A stretch of DNA of 64,000 nucleotides, from assembly GCA_965223945.1 (NCBI GenBank), contig CBDCXW010000005.1:2244-66243 (forward strand), given 5' to 3'. Position numbers and translations under genes: made by a program. The DNA comes from Dehalococcoidia bacterium. GTDB taxonomy: Bacteria > Chloroflexota > Dehalococcoidia > Lucifugimonadales > CATQGZ01. Shown here piece by piece: positions 142-37,411 of the stretch (the stretch's first letter is position 1; each line of letters starts with the position of its first letter). Under the pieces are notes generated by a model that was given only the letters and a program-made list of their open reading frames with translations, had not been told where the DNA came from and searched no databases.

Positions 142-900
142 TTGGCTGAGCTCAGGGTGAATCGGGTCAAGCGGAAACTGGCCGAGGGCGGCGTGGCCAC
201 GCTGGTCGGCGGGTCCGGCGGGACCAACACGGGCGACATGATCGAGATGCTGGGGACGATGGGCTTCGACGGGGCCTGGATCGAGACGGAGCACGGGCCC
301 TTCGACTTCGCGGACCTGCCGGACCTCACCAGGGCGTGCGACCTGTGGGGCATGACGTCGGTCGTGCGGGTCAACCTCAACCTGCCGGGCGTCATATACA
401 GGACGCTGGACGTCGGCGCGCAGGGCATCGTCGTCCCGCACGTCGACACGGCGGAGCAGGCCAGGGAGGTCGTCGACGCGGGGAAGTTCGCGCCGATCGG
501 ACACCGGGGAAACTACGGCGGCCGCCAGAGCTTCGGCGTCGAGGACTACCTCACGAGGGCGAATGACGAGACGCTCCTGGTGGTCCTCATAGAGGATGTC
601 GTGGCCATCGAGAACCTGGACGAGATCCTGACGGTGGACAATATCGACTGCTTCTTCGTCGCGCCGGGGGACCTGTCGCAGAGCATGGGCCTGCCGGGGG
701 GCATGAACAACCCGGAGGTGCAGCGGGTGGTCGACGACGCGGTGGCGCGGATCATCGCGGCGGGCCGGGTCGCGGGCAGCCTGGCGTCGATCGAGACGGT
801 CGAGGAGACGATCGAAAAGGGCGCGAGACTCCTGCTGACGAACTGGGACCCGTGGGTAGCCGCGGGCGCGCGCACGTACCTGAACAAGGCCGGCGGGTAG
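142..900 (+). CDS. HpcH/HpaI family class II aldolase
   Basis: 252-aa ORF with TTG start. Family-typical segments are GFDGAWIETEHGP, GIVVPHVDTAEQA and IEDVVAIENLDEIL..DCFFVAPGDLSQSMG. Coding-type codon usage across the full length. Confidence 0.85.
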   Translation: MAELRVNRVKRKLAEGGVATLVGGSGGTNTGDMIEMLGTMGFDGAWIETEHGPFDFADLPDLTRACDLWGMTSVVRVNLNLPGVIYRTLDVGAQGIVVPHVDTAEQAREVVDAGKFAPIGHRGNYGGRQSFGVEDYLTRANDETLLVVLIEDVVAIENLDEILTVDNIDCFFVAPGDLSQSMGLPGGMNNPEVQRVVDDAVARIIAAGRVAGSLASIETVEETIEKGARLLLTNWDPWVAAGARTYLNKAGG

Positions 901-1097
901 ATCACCCTCACCCCAGCCCTCTCCCGTCAAGGGAGAGGGGGTAGGAGCGCCCACGGCGCCGGTACGTAAGGGCTCCCCTCGCGGGAGAAGGCTAGGATGA
1001 GGGGCGTTGAGGGCACGGCCAGGAGCGTCACCCTCACCCCAACCCTCTCCCGTCAAGGGAGAGGGGGTAGGAGCGCCCAGGGCGCCGGTGCGTAGGG
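901..1097. repeat. REP-like repeat cluster (M2-M3-M1-M2-M3)
   Basis: M2 at 903-940 and 1028-1065. M3 (GCGCCCACGGCGCCGGTACGTAAGGG type) follows each M2. An M1 variant lies at about 973-1005. The cluster starts directly after the stop codon of the aldolase gene. Confidence 0.85.
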
Positions 1098-1119
1098 GAG
1101 CGATCATCTTGACTGGCCG

Positions 1120-1341
1120 GTGAAGCCAACCTATGATGAGCGCATGGTTGCCACAGCCGGCACGGAGGACATATCCCGGAGCCTCGGGCGGCTTGAAGGC
1201 CAGGTCGGCAGCATAGAAAAGCGCCTTGGCAGCATCGAGCAGCGGCTCGACCGCGTCATATTCACTCTCTTCGGCTTCGGGGCCGCACTAGCCGCCGGAA
1301 TAGTCGGTATCCTGGTAAAACTGTTCCTCGACGCAGCCTAG
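1120..1341 (+). CDS. small hypothetical protein, N-terminal coiled coil plus C-terminal transmembrane helix
   Basis: 73-aa ORF. It has a heptad-like segment LGRLEGQVGSIEKRLGSIEQRLDRV followed by the hydrophobic FTLFGFGAALAAGIVGILVKLFL. Start codon uncertain (GTG 1120 or ATG 1144). Flanked by REP clusters. Confidence 0.45.
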   Translation: MKPTYDERMVATAGTEDISRSLGRLEGQVGSIEKRLGSIEQRLDRVIFTLFGFGAALAAGIVGILVKLFLDAA

Positions 1342-1404
1342 CGCCTACGGCCCTGCCACGGCGGCGCCCCCAAATGCGATGCAGGCCGCCCCTGCCCCAC
1401 CCCC

Positions 1405-1436
1405 TGGGTTCCGGCCTCCGCCGGAACGACGAGGGC
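1405..1436. repeat. REP-like hairpin module M4 (GGTTCCGGCCTCCGCCGGAAC)
   Basis: Perfect stem TTCCGGC/GCCGGAA with CTCC loop. Variants occur at 1678-1697, 61178-61197 and 63001-63018 (inverted). Confidence 0.7.
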
Positions 1437-1440
1437 GCAC

Positions 1441-2964
1441 ATGACCAACATCGCCTCCATCCTTGAACGACGCCTCGGGGCGTCCCGCGTCGAGCTGCTG
1501 CGGTCGGCCGGCCGCGCCGCGTCGGAGCTGGGCGTGCCGCTCTACCTGGTCGGTGGGTCCGTCCGCGACGCGCTGCTGGAGCGCCTACGGCACCCGTGTG
1601 ATACCCCTCACCCCAGCCCTCTCCCGCAAGGGGAGAGGGGGCCGGACGCTGGGGACCTGGACGTGAGCTTCTTCGTCGTTCCCGCGGAGGCGGGAACCCA
1701 GGGGCGGGGGCACGAAGATACCCCTCACCCCAACCCTCTCCCGCAAGGGGAGAGGGGGCGCCCACGGCGCCGGTACGTAGGGGACGGACTGGCCGAGGCG
1801 CTGGCGAAGGCGCTGGGAGGCGTGGCGTCGGACCGGTCGCAGTTCGGGACGGCGAAGCTGCGCGTGGGCGGCGTGTCGCTGGACCTGGTCATGGCCCGCC
1901 GGGAGACCTACGCCGCGCCGGGGGCGCTCCCGACGGTCGAGCCTGGATCGCTGGCCGACGACCTCGCACGGCGGGACTTCTCGATCAACGCGATGGCGGT
2001 GTCGCTGTCGGCGGAGTCGTGGGGCGACCTGGCGGACCCGTTCGACGGCGCGGGCGACCTGGAGCGCCGGGCCGTCAGGGTGCTGCACCCCGGCAGCTTT
2101 CGCGACGACGCGACGCGGCTGTTCCGGGCGGCGCGGTACGCGGGCAGGCTGGGGTTCGGGCTGGAGCCGGAGACGGAGCGGCTGGCGCGCGAGGGCGCGG
2201 CGTTCATCGACACGATCTCGGGCGACCGGGTGCGTCACGAGCTGGAGCGCATCTTCGAGGAGCCGCGGGCGGCGGACATCCTGCGGATAGCGGACGGCCT
2301 GGGCCTGCTGGGGGCGATACACCCGGCGCTGAGGCCGGCGGAGAGCCCGGAGGCCATCGAGGGCGAGCGGGGCCCGGCGATGCTGGCGGGGCTGGCGCTG
2401 GGGCTGTCGCCACAGGAGGCTGAGGAGGTCGCGGAGCGGCTGAACCTAGGCGCGGAGTGGGCGCGGGTCGTACGGGACACGGCGGCTGTGCGGGAGCTGC
2501 TGCCGGAGCTCGAAGCGGACCTCGCGCCGAGCCGCATATACCGGCTGCTGCACGGCAGGCACGAAGCGGCGCTGTCGGCAGCGCCCACGGCGCCGGTACG
2601 TATGGGGGAGACGCCCACGGCGCCGGTACGTAGGGGGGCAGCGCCCACGGCGCCGGTACGTAGGGGGGCGGCGCCCACGGCGCCGGTAGGTATGGGGGCA
2701 GAGCCCACGGCGGCGCCCACGGCGCCGGTAGGTAAAGGGGCGGCGGCGAACCTGCGGCTGTACCTGTCGCGGCTGCGGCACGTGTCGACGTCGCTGAGCG
2801 GCGGGGACATCGTCGCGATGGGAGTGCCCGAGGGGCCGAGGGTCGGCGAGGTGCTGCGGGAGCTGCTGGAGGCGCGGCTGGACGGGACGGTGGAGTCGGC
2901 GGAGGAGGAGCGGGAGCTGGCGTCGCGGCGCGCCCACGGCGGCGCCCACGGCGCCGGTAAGTAG
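1441..2964 (+). CDS. class II nucleotidyltransferase (CCA-adding enzyme / poly(A) polymerase family) carrying in-frame REP-derived insertions
   Basis: The N-terminal motif LYLVGGSVRDALLER...GDLDV matches the GGxVRDxLL...DxD head-domain signature. Downstream RDFSINAMAV and RVLHPGSFRDDATRLFRAARYA are typical of the family. The ORF is uninterrupted despite REP units at 1603-1641, 1678-1697 and 1719-1783 and a 30-nt tandem array at 2581-2740. The stop codon lies inside REP module M3. Confidence 0.75.
   Translation: MTNIASILERRLGASRVELLRSAGRAASELGVPLYLVGGSVRDALLERLRHPCDTPHPSPLPQGERGPDAGDLDVSFFVVPAEAGTQGRGHEDTPHPNPLPQGERGRPRRRYVGDGLAEALAKALGGVASDRSQFGTAKLRVGGVSLDLVMARRETYAAPGALPTVEPGSLADDLARRDFSINAMAVSLSAESWGDLADPFDGAGDLERRAVRVLHPGSFRDDATRLFRAARYAGRLGFGLEPETERLAREGAAFIDTISGDRVRHELERIFEEPRAADILRIADGLGLLGAIHPALRPAESPEAIEGERGPAMLAGLALGLSPQEAEEVAERLNLGAEWARVVRDTAAVRELLPELEADLAPSRIYRLLHGRHEAALSAAPTAPVRMGETPTAPVRRGAAPTAPVRRGAAPTAPVGMGAEPTAAPTAPVGKGAAANLRLYLSRLRHVSTSLSGGDIVAMGVPEGPRVGEVLRELLEARLDGTVESAEEERELASRRAHGGAHGAGK
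2581..2740 (+). repeat. tandem array of about 5 x 30 nt (REP module M3) inside the nucleotidyltransferase ORF
   Basis: GCGCCCACGGCGCCGGTACGTAGGGGGGCA-type units occupy 2581-2610, 2611-2640, 2641-2670 and 2671-2700, plus a rearranged unit at 2701-2740. They translate as (A/T)PTAPVR(R/M)G(A/E) repeats. Confidence 0.9.
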
Positions 2965-3040
2965 TATCACCCTCACCCCTGCCCTCTCCCGTCAAGGGAG
3001 AGGGGGTAGGAGCGGCCACGGCGCCGGTAGGTAGGGGGCG
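2929..3040. repeat. REP-like repeat cluster (M3-M3-M2-M3)
   Basis: GCGCCCACGGCGGCGCCCACGGCGCCGGTAAGTAG, then CACCCTCACCCCTGCCCTCTCCCGTCAAGGGAGAGGG, then GTAGGAGCGGCCACGGCGCCGGTAGGTAGGGG. Confidence 0.85.
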
Positions 3041-37387: not shown

Positions 37388-37411
37388 ACCCTCACCCTAG
37401 CCCTCTCCCGT
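37388..37411. repeat. REP module M2, left half (right half at 38678-38700), split by IS481-family insertion
   Basis: CACCCTCACCCTAGCCCTCTCCCGT | IS | CCCGTCGAGGGAGAGGGG. Removing the IS and one CCCGT copy restores a complete M2 hairpin. Confidence 0.85.

What the first reader, a model, noticed from the sequence alone, without database searches (positions are those of the whole stretch)
1585..1790. REP modules inserted in frame around the catalytic DxD motif of a CCA/poly(A)-polymerase-family enzyme
In this family the motif GGxVRDxLLGR is followed within a few residues by the catalytic DxD strand.
Here GGSVRDALLER is separated from GDLDV by about 22 residues (LRHPCDTPHPSPLPQGERGPDA) encoded by module M2.
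DLDV is immediately followed by about 38 residues (SFFVVPAEAGTQGRGHEDTPHPNPLPQGERGRPRRRYV) encoded by M4+M2+M3. Family-like sequence then resumes (GDGLAEALAKALGG).
Every insertion keeps the frame and avoids stops, so the 507-codon ORF stays intact.
Either the enzyme tolerates repeat-encoded loops at its active site, or this is a very recently inactivated gene that still looks intact.
If this is the only CCA-adding enzyme in the genome, the first option would be a striking case of repeat exaptation into an essential enzyme.
Basis: partly seen in the sequence, partly recalled or inferred. Interest (0 to 1): 0.65.

Follow-up and report, generated by a model that had tools for sequence, protein, structure and literature searches.

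The report
Repeat-encoded loops inside a tRNA nucleotidyltransferase
A tRNA CCA-adding-type enzyme gene of an uncultured Dehalococcoidia bacterium carries short palindromic repeats inserted in frame at four places, two beside its catalytic strand; this is a striking example of a known phenomenon, not a new kind of system.

Summary
ORF 1441-2964 (507 aa) is a class II tRNA nucleotidyltransferase, closest to the Thermotoga maritima CCA-adding enzyme. About 100 of its residues are encoded by REP-type hairpin modules that also fill the flanking intergenic DNA.

Orthologues at 53% identity or less (~410 aa) have short loops at the same positions: 5 residues before DLDV and 9 after it. The inserts are therefore acquired, not native.

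Closer orthologues in a conserved gene neighbourhood carry different module combinations at the same sites, sometimes in the opposite orientation. Most remain in frame.

Core dN/dS is 0.2-0.45. It is no higher against the insert-free outgroup, and only modestly above neighbouring genes (0.15-0.20). AlphaFold2 gives a confident core, with low confidence (pLDDT below 50) only in the four repeat-encoded segments.

This favours tolerated disordered loops over recent inactivation. Exaptation is not shown: the loops are hypervariable, and about 7 of 30 orthologues are truncated or frameshifted. At least three of these (L090, L091, P0028) break inside repeat segments.

Whether this is the genome's only CCA enzyme could not be tested. 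In-frame REP/RPE insertions are already documented, so this is a new member of a known kind.

The parts
1441..2964 (+). ORF of 507 aa: class II tRNA nucleotidyltransferase (PolyA_pol head + RNA-binding domain), orthologous to ~410-aa Dehalococcoidia 'CCA tRNA nucleotidyltransferase' proteins
   Evidence: phmmer of the insert-free orthologue P0030 to T. maritima CCA-adding enzyme 3h37, E 4e-51; Foldseek best hit 5hc9, E 4.5e-20
1552..1569 (+). GGSVRD (residues 38-43): the G[GS] helix-start motif of the nucleotidyltransferase fold. G38, G39, V41, R42 and D43 are invariant in 34 orthologues
1579..1653 (+). Insert 1 (residues 47-71, ERLRHPCDTPHPSPLPQGERGPDAG). It consists of a degenerate third-module piece (1582-1596), TGT, then hairpin module 'M2b' (1600-1641) and CCGGAC. 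It replaces a 5-residue linker
   Evidence: AF2 pLDDT <50 for residues 54-70
1654..1665 (+). DLDV (residues 72-75): catalytic DxD beta-strand. D74 is invariant and D72 nearly invariant. The strand is predicted at residues 73-77
1669..1783 (+). Insert 2 (residues 77-113). It consists of hairpin module M4 (1675-1704, VVPAEAGTQG), M2b (1717-1758, DTPHPNPLPQGERG) and M3 (1758-1783, RPRRRYV)
   Evidence: AF2 pLDDT <50 for residues 84-112
1882..1884 (+). D148, in the strand SLDLVMAR: third catalytic carboxylate position, invariant in 34 orthologues
   Evidence: aligned to the RIDIATAR strand of 3h37
1969..1977 (+). RRD (residues 177-179), motif B of class II CCA-adding enzymes; invariant
2104..2118 (+). 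DDATR (residues 222-226), motif D ([ED]DxxR). T. maritima has DDPTR at the same position
2577..2740 (+). Third repeat-encoded segment: tandem array of five M3 units (spacing 30, 30, 30, 42 nt) reading APTAPV(R/G)(R/M)G. It is absent from insert-free orthologues and its copy number varies between relatives
   Evidence: AF2 pLDDT <50 for residues 388-426
2926..2964 (+). C-terminal tail RRAHGGAHGAGK plus the TAG stop. It is encoded by M3 in its third reading frame, so the repeat supplies the stop codon
1393..1447 (+). Inverted copy of module M4 in the 5' leader, overlapping a GAGGG Shine-Dalgarno-like site and the ATG. It is 82% complementary over 55 nt to 1658-1712 inside the gene
   Evidence: I1; RNA fold keeps this long-range helix in both MFE and centroid structures, z -5.8
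900..1098 (+). Intergenic REP cluster upstream (two M2a+M3 composites and one further module): the extragenic counterparts of the in-gene modules
2965..3037 (+). Intergenic M2a+M3 composite immediately after the stop codon

Best explanation
**What it is.** This is a genuine class II tRNA nucleotidyltransferase gene of the CCA-adding type, in a G+C-rich Dehalococcoidia lineage whose genome is packed with modular REP-type hairpin repeats. The repeats have entered the gene at four permissive positions:
- the linker between the G[GS] helix and the DxD strand;
- the loop after the DxD strand;
- a helix-helix loop in the C-terminal half;
- the C-terminus.

**How the inserts arise and change (inferred).**
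- Only insertions that keep the frame and lack stops survive selection.
- Once a site holds a repeat, it attracts further insertions.
- Unequal recombination between modules then changes content and length between close relatives.

**Effect on the protein (inferred).** The encoded peptides are rich in Pro, Gly, Arg and Glu. They behave as disordered surface loops that leave the catalytic core folded, and the enzyme most likely remains active.

**Shown versus inferred.**
- Shown: repeat origin of the inserts, empty sites in outgroups, turnover between relatives, purifying selection on the core, and a confident predicted core with low-confidence loops.
- Inferred: the insertion mechanism, retained catalytic activity, and true disorder of the loops.
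For: **Repeat origin.** The same modules lie in flanking intergenic DNA of the window and of orthologous loci.

**Empty sites.** The insert-free outgroup locus L089 has no module in 9.2 kb, and its gene has short loops. All orthologues aligned at 53% identity or less (~410 aa) lack the inserts.

**Orthology.** The neighbourhood HpcH aldolase - small ORF - this gene - ABC2 permease - ABC ATPase is conserved.

**Turnover at fixed sites.**
- Site 1 holds M2b in the window, L082 and L086. It holds M3 in L081, L085, L087 and L088. It is empty in L083 and L084.
- Site 2 holds M4+M2b+M3, M4 alone, M2b alone, M4 in reverse orientation (PAPLGSGLRRNDE), or an unrelated module (DQPWRRGGSETRP).

**Repeat-mediated rearrangements.**
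- L081 has a 51-nt duplication bounded by M3.
- L090 has a 117-nt duplication between the two M2b copies.
- P0010's C-terminal domain is replaced by an M3-encoded tail directly after the site-3 array; a deletion between the two M3 blocks is the likely cause.

**Selection.**
- Core dN/dS over 362 codons is 0.19-0.45.
- Against the insert-free L089 it is 0.25-0.34.
- Neighbouring genes have medians of 0.15-0.20.

**Frame filter.** In-gene M3 spacings are multiples of 3 in 10 of 12 cases, against 9 of 34 intergenic spacings, where the mode is 26 nt.

**Conserved residues.** Catalytic and family motifs are invariant across 34 orthologues.

**Structure.** The AF2 model has mean pLDDT 82.5 and pTM 0.77. 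pLDDT is below 50 only at residues 54-70, 84-112, 388-426 and 503-507, and strand 73-77 is retained. The best structural matches are the T. maritima CCA-adding and A. aeolicus A-adding enzymes.

**Peptide composition.** The insert peptides are 78-92% P/G/R/E/D/T/H/Q/S/A.
Against: - No activity or expression data exist.
- The spacing between G[GS] and DxD becomes about 31-32 residues. The nucleotidyltransferase-fold signature is hG[GS]x9-13Dh[DE]h (my knowledge of Holm & Sander 1995 and Aravind & Koonin 1999). The insert therefore sits where the fold is normally rigid and close to the triphosphate site.
- Core dN/dS (about 0.29) is somewhat higher than in neighbouring genes.
- About 7 of 30 close orthologues are truncated or frameshifted. 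In L090 the break is a 29-nt partial-module duplication, not a homopolymer error.
- Low pLDDT may partly reflect alignment gaps rather than true disorder.
- A second enzyme that would make this gene dispensable cannot be excluded.
Confidence: 0.72

Rival explanations
1. The gene is decaying. The repeat insertions next to the active site have inactivated or crippled the enzyme, another enzyme or genomically encoded CCA ends cover the function, and the ORF merely has not yet accumulated stops.
For: - About 7 of 30 close orthologues are truncated or frameshifted.
- L090 has two frameshifts and a duplicated catalytic strand. L091 has two frameshifts in site 3. Flanking genes in both loci are intact.
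- Core dN/dS is about 1.5-2 times that of neighbouring genes.
- The G[GS]-to-DxD spacing lies far outside the family norm.
Against: - dN/dS is well below 1 in every pair, and is the same against the insert-free outgroup.
- Even the frameshifted copies have clean cores, with dN/dS 0.23-0.47.
- All catalytic and motif residues are invariant across 34 sequences.
- At least 21 lineages with different insert combinations keep full-length ORFs, although the repeats change rapidly.
- In-gene arrays are restricted to frame-preserving spacings. That restriction requires continuing selection on the reading frame.
Confidence: 0.17
2. Exaptation. The repeat-encoded loops, or the hairpins in the mRNA, have acquired a function. 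They might modulate tRNA or NTP access. Alternatively, they might regulate translation through pairing of the 5'-leader M4 copy with the in-gene M4 copy, which would bury the ribosome-binding site and the AUG.
For: - The in-gene M2b copy is identical (0 of 42 nt different) between the window, L087 and L088, although core dS is 0.33-0.54.
- Within the orthologous loci, the GCAAG-loop variant is found only inside the gene.
- The predicted mRNA fold keeps a 55-nt long-range helix over the start site, z -5.8.
Against: - Loop content differs between close relatives, including orientation flips and complete module swaps.
- The upstream module is M3 rather than M4 in L081, L082 and L086, so the long-range pairing is not conserved.
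- M2b is not gene-specific. The exact 37-mer occurs in more than 120 unrelated metagenome contigs and, at 95% identity, in E. coli. Its conservation is therefore a property of the repeat family.
- Of the 5 variable positions in M2b, 3 are non-synonymous and 1 is synonymous, so there is no sign of peptide-level constraint.
Confidence: 0.08
3. The long segments are native variable loops of this enzyme subfamily that only resemble repeats by chance, or they are metagenome assembly artefacts.
For: G+C-rich, Pro/Gly-rich low-complexity sequence can arise without mobile repeats. The sources are metagenome assemblies.
Against: - Module sequences are near-identical to intergenic copies, at 0 expected chance matches.
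- Outgroups have short loops.
- The same architecture is recovered in independent assemblies from different samples, some on contigs of 0.65-3.3 Mb.
Confidence: 0.02

Closest known systems
Rickettsia palindromic elements (RPE; Ogata et al. 2000, as summarised in PMC3184786 and PMC3733652)
   Same: Palindromic repeats inserted in frame inside protein-coding genes, including RNA-processing enzymes. The host genes remain open, and the elements add extra peptide segments.
   Different: RPEs are single elements of about 105-146 bp in a reduced alphaproteobacterial genome. Here, several unrelated modules of 26-42 bp combine and turn over at four sites of one gene in Dehalococcoidia. No sequence relationship was found or expected.
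Intragenic GTAG/CGTC-tagged REPs (Di Nocera et al. 2013, PMC3733652)
   Same: - REPs lie entirely within ORFs as singles, dimers or clusters that encode 20-82 aa.
- Some ORFs carry inserts at two sites.
- The ends of GTAG REPs often supply the TAG stop codon.
- In the Chloroflexota member T. roseum, REPs are clustered in large blocks.
- Here the M3 unit begins with GTAG, supplies the TAG stop, and forms large blocks.
   Different: That survey does not list a CCA-adding enzyme. It does not describe inserts flanking a catalytic strand, or lineage-by-lineage turnover at fixed sites. Association with a RAYT transposase was not tested here.
Thermotoga maritima CCA-adding enzyme (PDB 3h37/5hc9) and Aquifex aeolicus A-adding enzyme (1vfg/4wc2)
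   Same: These are the best sequence and fold matches. They share GGxVRDxLLG, DxD, RRDF(T/S)INAM and DDxTR.
   Different: The solved enzymes have a 5-residue linker before DxD and a short turn after it. The window protein has 25 and 42 residues there, plus a 44-residue array and a repeat-derived tail. It falls below all NCBIfam equivalog cut-offs, so its exact activity (CCA, CC or A addition) is unassigned.
MITE/REP open-reading-frame fusions in Enterobacteriaceae, Anabaena and Streptococcus (review, Delihas 2011, PMC3184786)
   Same: Small intergenic repeats are fused in frame to chromosomal ORFs, internally or at the 3' end.
   Different: Most of those cases are terminal extensions or disruptions. 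Here, multiple internal inserts lie within a conserved catalytic domain.

Membership tests
Class II tRNA nucleotidyltransferase / poly(A) polymerase family (Pfam PF01743 + PF12627) | Head-domain and RNA-binding-domain profiles above Pfam gathering scores | tested here: met
   PF01743 scores 60.7 bits against a cut-off of 23, but only profile positions 31-126 align. PF12627 scores 38.7 against 22.
Class II tRNA nucleotidyltransferase / poly(A) polymerase family (Pfam PF01743 + PF12627) | Nucleotidyltransferase-fold signature hG[GS]x9-13Dh[DE]h (residues and spacing) | tested here: not met
   The residues are present: G38 G39 S40 and D72-L-D74-V. The spacing is about 31-32 residues in the window protein, against 11-12 in the insert-free orthologue P0030. 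The pattern itself is taken from my knowledge of the literature.
Class II tRNA nucleotidyltransferase / poly(A) polymerase family (Pfam PF01743 + PF12627) | Third catalytic carboxylate, motif B (RRD) and motif D ([ED]DxxR) | tested here: met
   D148, R177-R178-D179 and D222-D223-A-T-R226 are invariant in 34 orthologues. They align to the corresponding T. maritima residues.
Class II tRNA nucleotidyltransferase / poly(A) polymerase family (Pfam PF01743 + PF12627) | Overall fold like solved class II CCA-adding enzymes | tested here: met
   Foldseek gives 5hc9 at E 4.5e-20 with TM-score (target-normalised) 0.74, and 4wc2 at E 1.2e-19. The model has pTM 0.77.
CCA-adding enzyme proper (NCBIfam equivalogs TIGR02692, NF009814, NF008137; A-adding NF041569) | Score above the curated equivalog cut-off | tested here: not met
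   Best scores are 184.8 against 1440 (A-adding), 113.4 against 438.8, 89.8 against 290, and 74 against 451.
CCA-adding enzyme proper (NCBIfam equivalogs TIGR02692, NF009814, NF008137; A-adding NF041569) | Template-independent addition of C, C, A to tRNA 3' ends; sole or essential enzyme in the genome | not testable with these tools
   No assay is possible. The whole genome is not available. There is no tRNA gene in the window or in the close orthologous loci. There is no second homologue in the 64-kb window.
REP / GTAG-tagged palindromic repeats | Short (20-40 bp) G+C-rich imperfect palindromes, multi-copy and predominantly intergenic | tested here: met
   M2 has a 9-bp stem, M4 an 8-bp stem and M3 a 5-bp stem. 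The loci hold dozens of copies, intergenic except in this gene.
REP / GTAG-tagged palindromic repeats | GTAG (or CGTC) tetranucleotide at one end of the unit | tested here: met
   M3 array units read GTAGGGGGGCAGCGCCCACGGCGCCGGTAC|GTAG... M2a is followed by GGTAGGAG. This is met by inspection only; no family model was applied.
REP / GTAG-tagged palindromic repeats | Association with a RAYT (REP-associated tyrosine transposase) gene | not tested
   Window ORFs were not scanned for PF01797. Only DDE-type transposase genes were seen near orthologous loci.
Rickettsia palindromic elements (RPE) | Sequence membership in an RPE family | not tested
   No comparison with RPE sequences was run. Unit size and host differ: 26-42 bp modules here, against 105-146 bp. 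The resemblance is functional (in-frame palindromic inserts), not by descent.

The most novel reading that the evidence does not exclude
The repeat segments are not just tolerated passengers. The gene-resident hairpins are maintained because they act in cis on the mRNA. For example, the 5'-leader M4 copy could pair with the in-gene M4 copy to gate translation initiation of the tRNA-maturation enzyme. Alternatively, the flexible loops flanking the DxD strand could tune substrate access. Either would make this a domesticated REP inside an enzyme core.
Probability: 0.08. Interest if true: 0.7.

Novelty: new member of a known kind. Interest (0 to 1): 0.45.

Why it matters
**Tolerance of the fold.** One of the most rigid spacings in the nucleotidyltransferase fold is the helix-to-DxD linker. 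Here it appears to absorb about 20 extra residues, and the turn after the catalytic strand about 33 more. All of these come from selfish repeats, yet purifying selection on the core remains detectable.

**A natural experiment.** The set of orthologues forms a series: empty sites, single modules, composites, orientation flips, duplications and broken alleles. This series could be used in three ways:
- to study how REP-type elements enter and restructure coding sequence;
- to study which reading frames survive;
- to map permissive loop positions in class II CCA-adding enzymes.

**A practical warning.** About 20% of this protein is repeat-encoded, and this hides the N-terminal catalytic motif from the Pfam profile match.

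Tried and rejected
- **Exact look-up of the window protein's contig.** Not on record, so the source genome could not be scanned for a second paralogue or for tRNA genes.
- **Genome-contig scan with the alignment.** These were useful for taxonomy (Dehalococcoidia) but gave no close-relative DNA. Close relatives were then fetched one at a time.
- **Cluster look-up.** It gave no names.
- **Protein search with the insert-2 peptide.** The first query was too short. The second found only 2 candidates and did not recover the query's own protein. The question 'how many other proteins carry these modules in frame' therefore stays open.
- **tRNA scans of the window and 60 loci.** Only two doubtful or distant tRNA calls were returned. 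The L030 call did not show a clean acceptor end. Whether CCA is genomically encoded is unresolved.
- **Rfam.** No family matched anywhere in the window.
- **Literature search for the module strings and PLPQGERG.** No paper was found.
- **Idea that the GCAAG-loop 'M2b' variant is private to this gene.** Rejected after the metagenome scan found more than 120 unrelated copies.
- **Longer distant orthologues (P0084, P0116, P0075).** Their extra length is N-terminal, probably from mis-called starts, and does not lie at the insert sites.
- **Native-loop and assembly-artefact readings.** Rejected; see the rival explanations.
Full report
**1. The observation**

The window opens with a dense cluster of G+C-rich modular repeats. 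Within it, ORF 1441-2964 (+) encodes 507 aa.

Pfam finds the PolyA_pol head domain only from profile position 31 onward (residues 117-213), and PolyA_pol_RNAbd at residues 238-298. The N-terminal catalytic motif is present by eye: GGSVRD at residues 38-43 and DLDV at residues 72-75. It is too interrupted for the profile to align.

- a hairpin with stem CCCTCTCCC/GGGAGAGGG at 1603-1641 and 1720-1758;
- a GTTCCCGC/GCGGGAAC hairpin at 1675-1704;
- GCGCCCACGGCGCCGGTACGTAGGGG at 1758-1783.

The 20-nt arm of the first module occurs 7 times in the window, against none in 100 shuffles. Almost all module copies in the 64 kb lie within the first 3.04 kb.

I add three points:
- Insert 1 starts with a degenerate piece of the third module (1582-1596).
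- A tandem array of five copies of that module (2577-2740, spacing 30/30/30/42 nt) encodes APTAPVRRG-type repeats.
- The C-terminal tail RRAHGGAHGAGK and the TAG stop are also encoded by that module.

All three reading frames of this one module are used in the gene: APTAPVRRG, RPRRRYV, and AHGAGK-stop. About 100 of the 507 residues are repeat-derived.

**2. Acquired inserts, not native loops**

A protein search gave 2013 relatives. Those named by their sources are Dehalococcoidia/Chloroflexota 'CCA tRNA nucleotidyltransferase', and the genome scan gives the same taxonomy.

In a 34-sequence alignment, every orthologue at 53% identity or less (~410 aa) reads GGSVRDLLL-GxxPx-DLDVSx-xGGxxD-FAxxLA. 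That is a 5-residue linker before the DxD strand and 9 residues between it and the next helix. The window protein has 25 and 42 residues there.

Longer distant orthologues owe their length to N-terminal extensions, not to these sites. It is not met.

**3. Turnover at fixed sites**

I fetched the DNA of nine orthologues, plus two disrupted ones. All lie in the same neighbourhood: HpcH aldolase, small ORF, this gene, ABC2 permease, ABC ATPase.

Codon-level views and module scans show the following.

Site 1:
- the composite [degenerate M3]-TGT-M2b in the window, L082 and L086;
- M3 alone, in two different frames, in L081, L085, L087 and L088;
- empty in L083, L084 and the outgroup L089.

Site 2, which is occupied in all 25 orthologues aligned at 65% identity or more:
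- M4+M2b+M3 (window, L081, L082);
- M4 alone (L086);
- M2b alone (L084, L087);
- M4 in the opposite orientation, reading PAPLGSGLRRNDE (L085, L088);
- an unrelated module, DQPWRRGGSETRP (L083).

The outgroup locus L089 has no module anywhere in 9.2 kb.

Rearrangements bounded by modules are visible directly:
- a 51-nt duplication in L081;
- a nested 24-nt insertion in the M2b arm in L086;
- a 117-nt tandem duplication between the two M2b copies in L090, which duplicates the catalytic strand;
- in P0010, the C-terminal domain is replaced by an M3-encoded tail directly after the site-3 array, most simply explained by a deletion between the two M3 blocks.

**4. Is the gene still under selection?**

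- Nei-Gojobori dN/dS over 362 ungapped core codons is 0.19-0.45 for all pairs, and 0.20-0.37 for pairs that include the window.
- It is no lower against the insert-free outgroup, 0.25-0.34.
- The three neighbouring genes give medians of 0.20, 0.18 and 0.15. The enzyme is constrained, though somewhat less than its neighbours.
- Catalytic and motif residues are invariant across the 34 sequences: G38, G39, R42, D43, D74, D148, R177-R178-D179 and D222-D223-x-T225-R226.
- In-gene spacings of the M3 module are multiples of three in 10 of 12 cases. Intergenic spacings are multiples of three in 9 of 34, with a mode of 26 nt. This shows that only frame-preserving arrangements persist in the gene.
- Stop avoidance itself is cheap: 5 of the 6 frames of M2b are open.

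**5. Structure**

AlphaFold2 with the 34-sequence alignment gives mean pLDDT 82.5 and pTM 0.77. Confidence is above 90 for 331 residues. It is below 50 only at 54-70, 84-112, 388-426 and 503-507, which are the four repeat-encoded segments. The helix at 39-49 and the strand at 73-77 are retained.

Foldseek places the model with the T. maritima CCA-adding enzyme (5hc9, E 4.5e-20) and the A. aeolicus A-adding enzyme (4wc2). The insert-free orthologue matches 3h37 by sequence at E 4e-51, with short loops at both sites in the solved protein.

The insert peptides are 78-92% P/G/R/E/D/T/H/Q/S/A.

One caveat: low pLDDT can also reflect sparse alignment columns.

One point of real interest: the fold's signature hG[GS]x9-13Dh[DE]h (from my knowledge of the literature) is stretched to about 31-32 residues here.

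**6. Evidence of cost**

Of about 30 close orthologues, seven are truncated or frameshifted: P0010, P0025, P0026, P0027, P0028, P0029 and P0104.

- L090 has a 29-nt partial-hairpin duplication that shifts the frame in site 2, and a second shift in site 3.
- L091 has two shifts inside site 3.
- Flanking genes in both loci are intact.
- The cores of these copies still give dN/dS 0.23-0.47 with no internal stops.

These are therefore either recent losses or errors confined to repeats. The repeats make the gene fragile, and strict essentiality in every lineage is doubtful.

**7. Exaptation?**

The M2b copy at site 2 is identical over 42 nt in the window, L087 and L088, although core dS is 0.33-0.54. 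Within the orthologous loci, the GCAAG-loop variant is found only in the gene.

This looked like domestication. However, a metagenome scan found the exact 37-mer in more than 120 unrelated contigs, with G+C from 0.33 to 0.76 and none carrying a homologue of this enzyme. Near-identical copies also occur in Azospirillum, Klebsiella, Deinococcus and 4975 of 5426 E. coli genomes, for example in the nrdA-nrdB spacer. The conservation therefore belongs to the repeat family, not to this gene.

A 55-nt, 82% complementary pairing between the 5' leader (1393-1447, covering the likely ribosome-binding site and the ATG) and 1658-1712 survives in both the MFE and centroid folds, z -5.8. However, the upstream module differs in several orthologues. 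Exaptation remains unproven and, on present evidence, unlikely.

**8. Comparison with what is known**

In-frame palindromic repeats in coding genes are documented:
- Rickettsia RPEs (Ogata et al. 2000, as cited in PMC3184786).
- Intragenic GTAG/CGTC REPs in many species, encoding 20-82 aa, sometimes at two sites per ORF. GTAG ends often provide the TAG stop, and T. roseum (a Chloroflexota member) has block-wise clustering (PMC3733652).

The present case shares all of these traits. It differs in four ways: the host gene, the position of the inserts within a catalytic motif, the number of sites, and the documented lineage-by-lineage turnover.

It is a member of the class II nucleotidyltransferase family by domain, motifs and fold. 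It falls below every NCBIfam equivalog cut-off, so CCA-, CC- or A-adding specificity is unassigned.

**9. Verdict**

This is a genuine and well-documented example of repeat colonisation of permissive loops in a still-selected enzyme gene. It is a new member of a known kind.

What could not be tested:
- enzymatic activity;
- expression;
- the presence of a second paralogue;
- whether tRNA genes encode CCA.

For the last two, there is no tRNA gene in the window or the close orthologous loci, no second homologue in the window, and the source contig is not retrievable.

Noticed in passing
At 88-97% identity it occurs in Azospirillum, Klebsiella, Deinococcus and Rhizobium replicons. It also occurs in 4975 of 5426 complete E. 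coli genomes (median 4 copies), for example in the nrdA-nrdB spacer. Many copies are preceded by a second hairpin, TGAGGGGT-n22-ACCCCTCA. It is unexplained why one hairpin repeat is nearly invariant across phyla. It may correspond to E. coli 'BoxC', but that is from memory and unverified.
   Followed up: partly
window 1393-1447 versus 1658-1712: A 55-nt inverted repeat, 82% complementary, links the 5' leader (including a GAGGG site and the ATG at 1441) to codons 73-91. The RNA fold of 1385-1800 keeps this helix in both the MFE and centroid structures (z -5.8). The upstream module differs in several orthologues, so the pairing is not conserved.
   Followed up: partly
L090:2250-3850: This orthologue has a 117-nt tandem duplication between the two M2b copies, giving two DLDV catalytic strands. 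It also has a 29-nt partial-hairpin duplication that shifts the frame, and a second frameshift in the M3 array. Its flanking genes are intact. It is probably a repeat-driven pseudogene.
   Followed up: yes
L082:863-2422; L085:1298-3547: Very large intergenic blocks of M3 and M4 units (30 or more copies, periods mostly 26-42 nt) lie upstream of the orthologous genes. In L082 they are called as 110-aa and 290-aa 'genes' with no Pfam hit, almost certainly spurious ORFs across repeat arrays.
   Followed up: partly
P0010 (protein; no DNA fetched): This orthologue lacks the C-terminal ~80 residues and ends in the M3-encoded tail directly after the site-3 M3 array. That is consistent with a deletion by recombination between the two M3 blocks.
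   Followed up: no
window 37390-37409: This is the only module fragment outside the first 3.1 kb: a left arm of M2 (CCTCACCCTAGCCCTCTCCC) without its hairpin partner, in an AT-richer spacer.
   Followed up: partly
window 1120-1341: A 73-aa ORF with a C-terminal hydrophobic helix lies between the aldolase and the nucleotidyltransferase. A small ORF of 58-93 aa is called at the same position in several orthologous loci (in L083 with a faint DUF7310 mark). Homology between these ORFs was not tested.
   Followed up: no
L082:1-375, L084:352-675, L086:761-3598, L087:1135-1884, L088:2757-3732: DDE-type transposase genes or fragments (IS481, IS66 and DDE_Tnp_1 families) sit just upstream of the orthologous gene in several relatives. 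The neighbourhood is a general landing zone for mobile DNA.
   Followed up: no
window 1441-2964: The gene's first- and second-codon-position G+C (0.80 and 0.56) stands out from the other 41 predicted genes of the window (about 0.65 and 0.45), reflecting the repeat-encoded and Ala/Arg/Gly-rich content.
   Followed up: no
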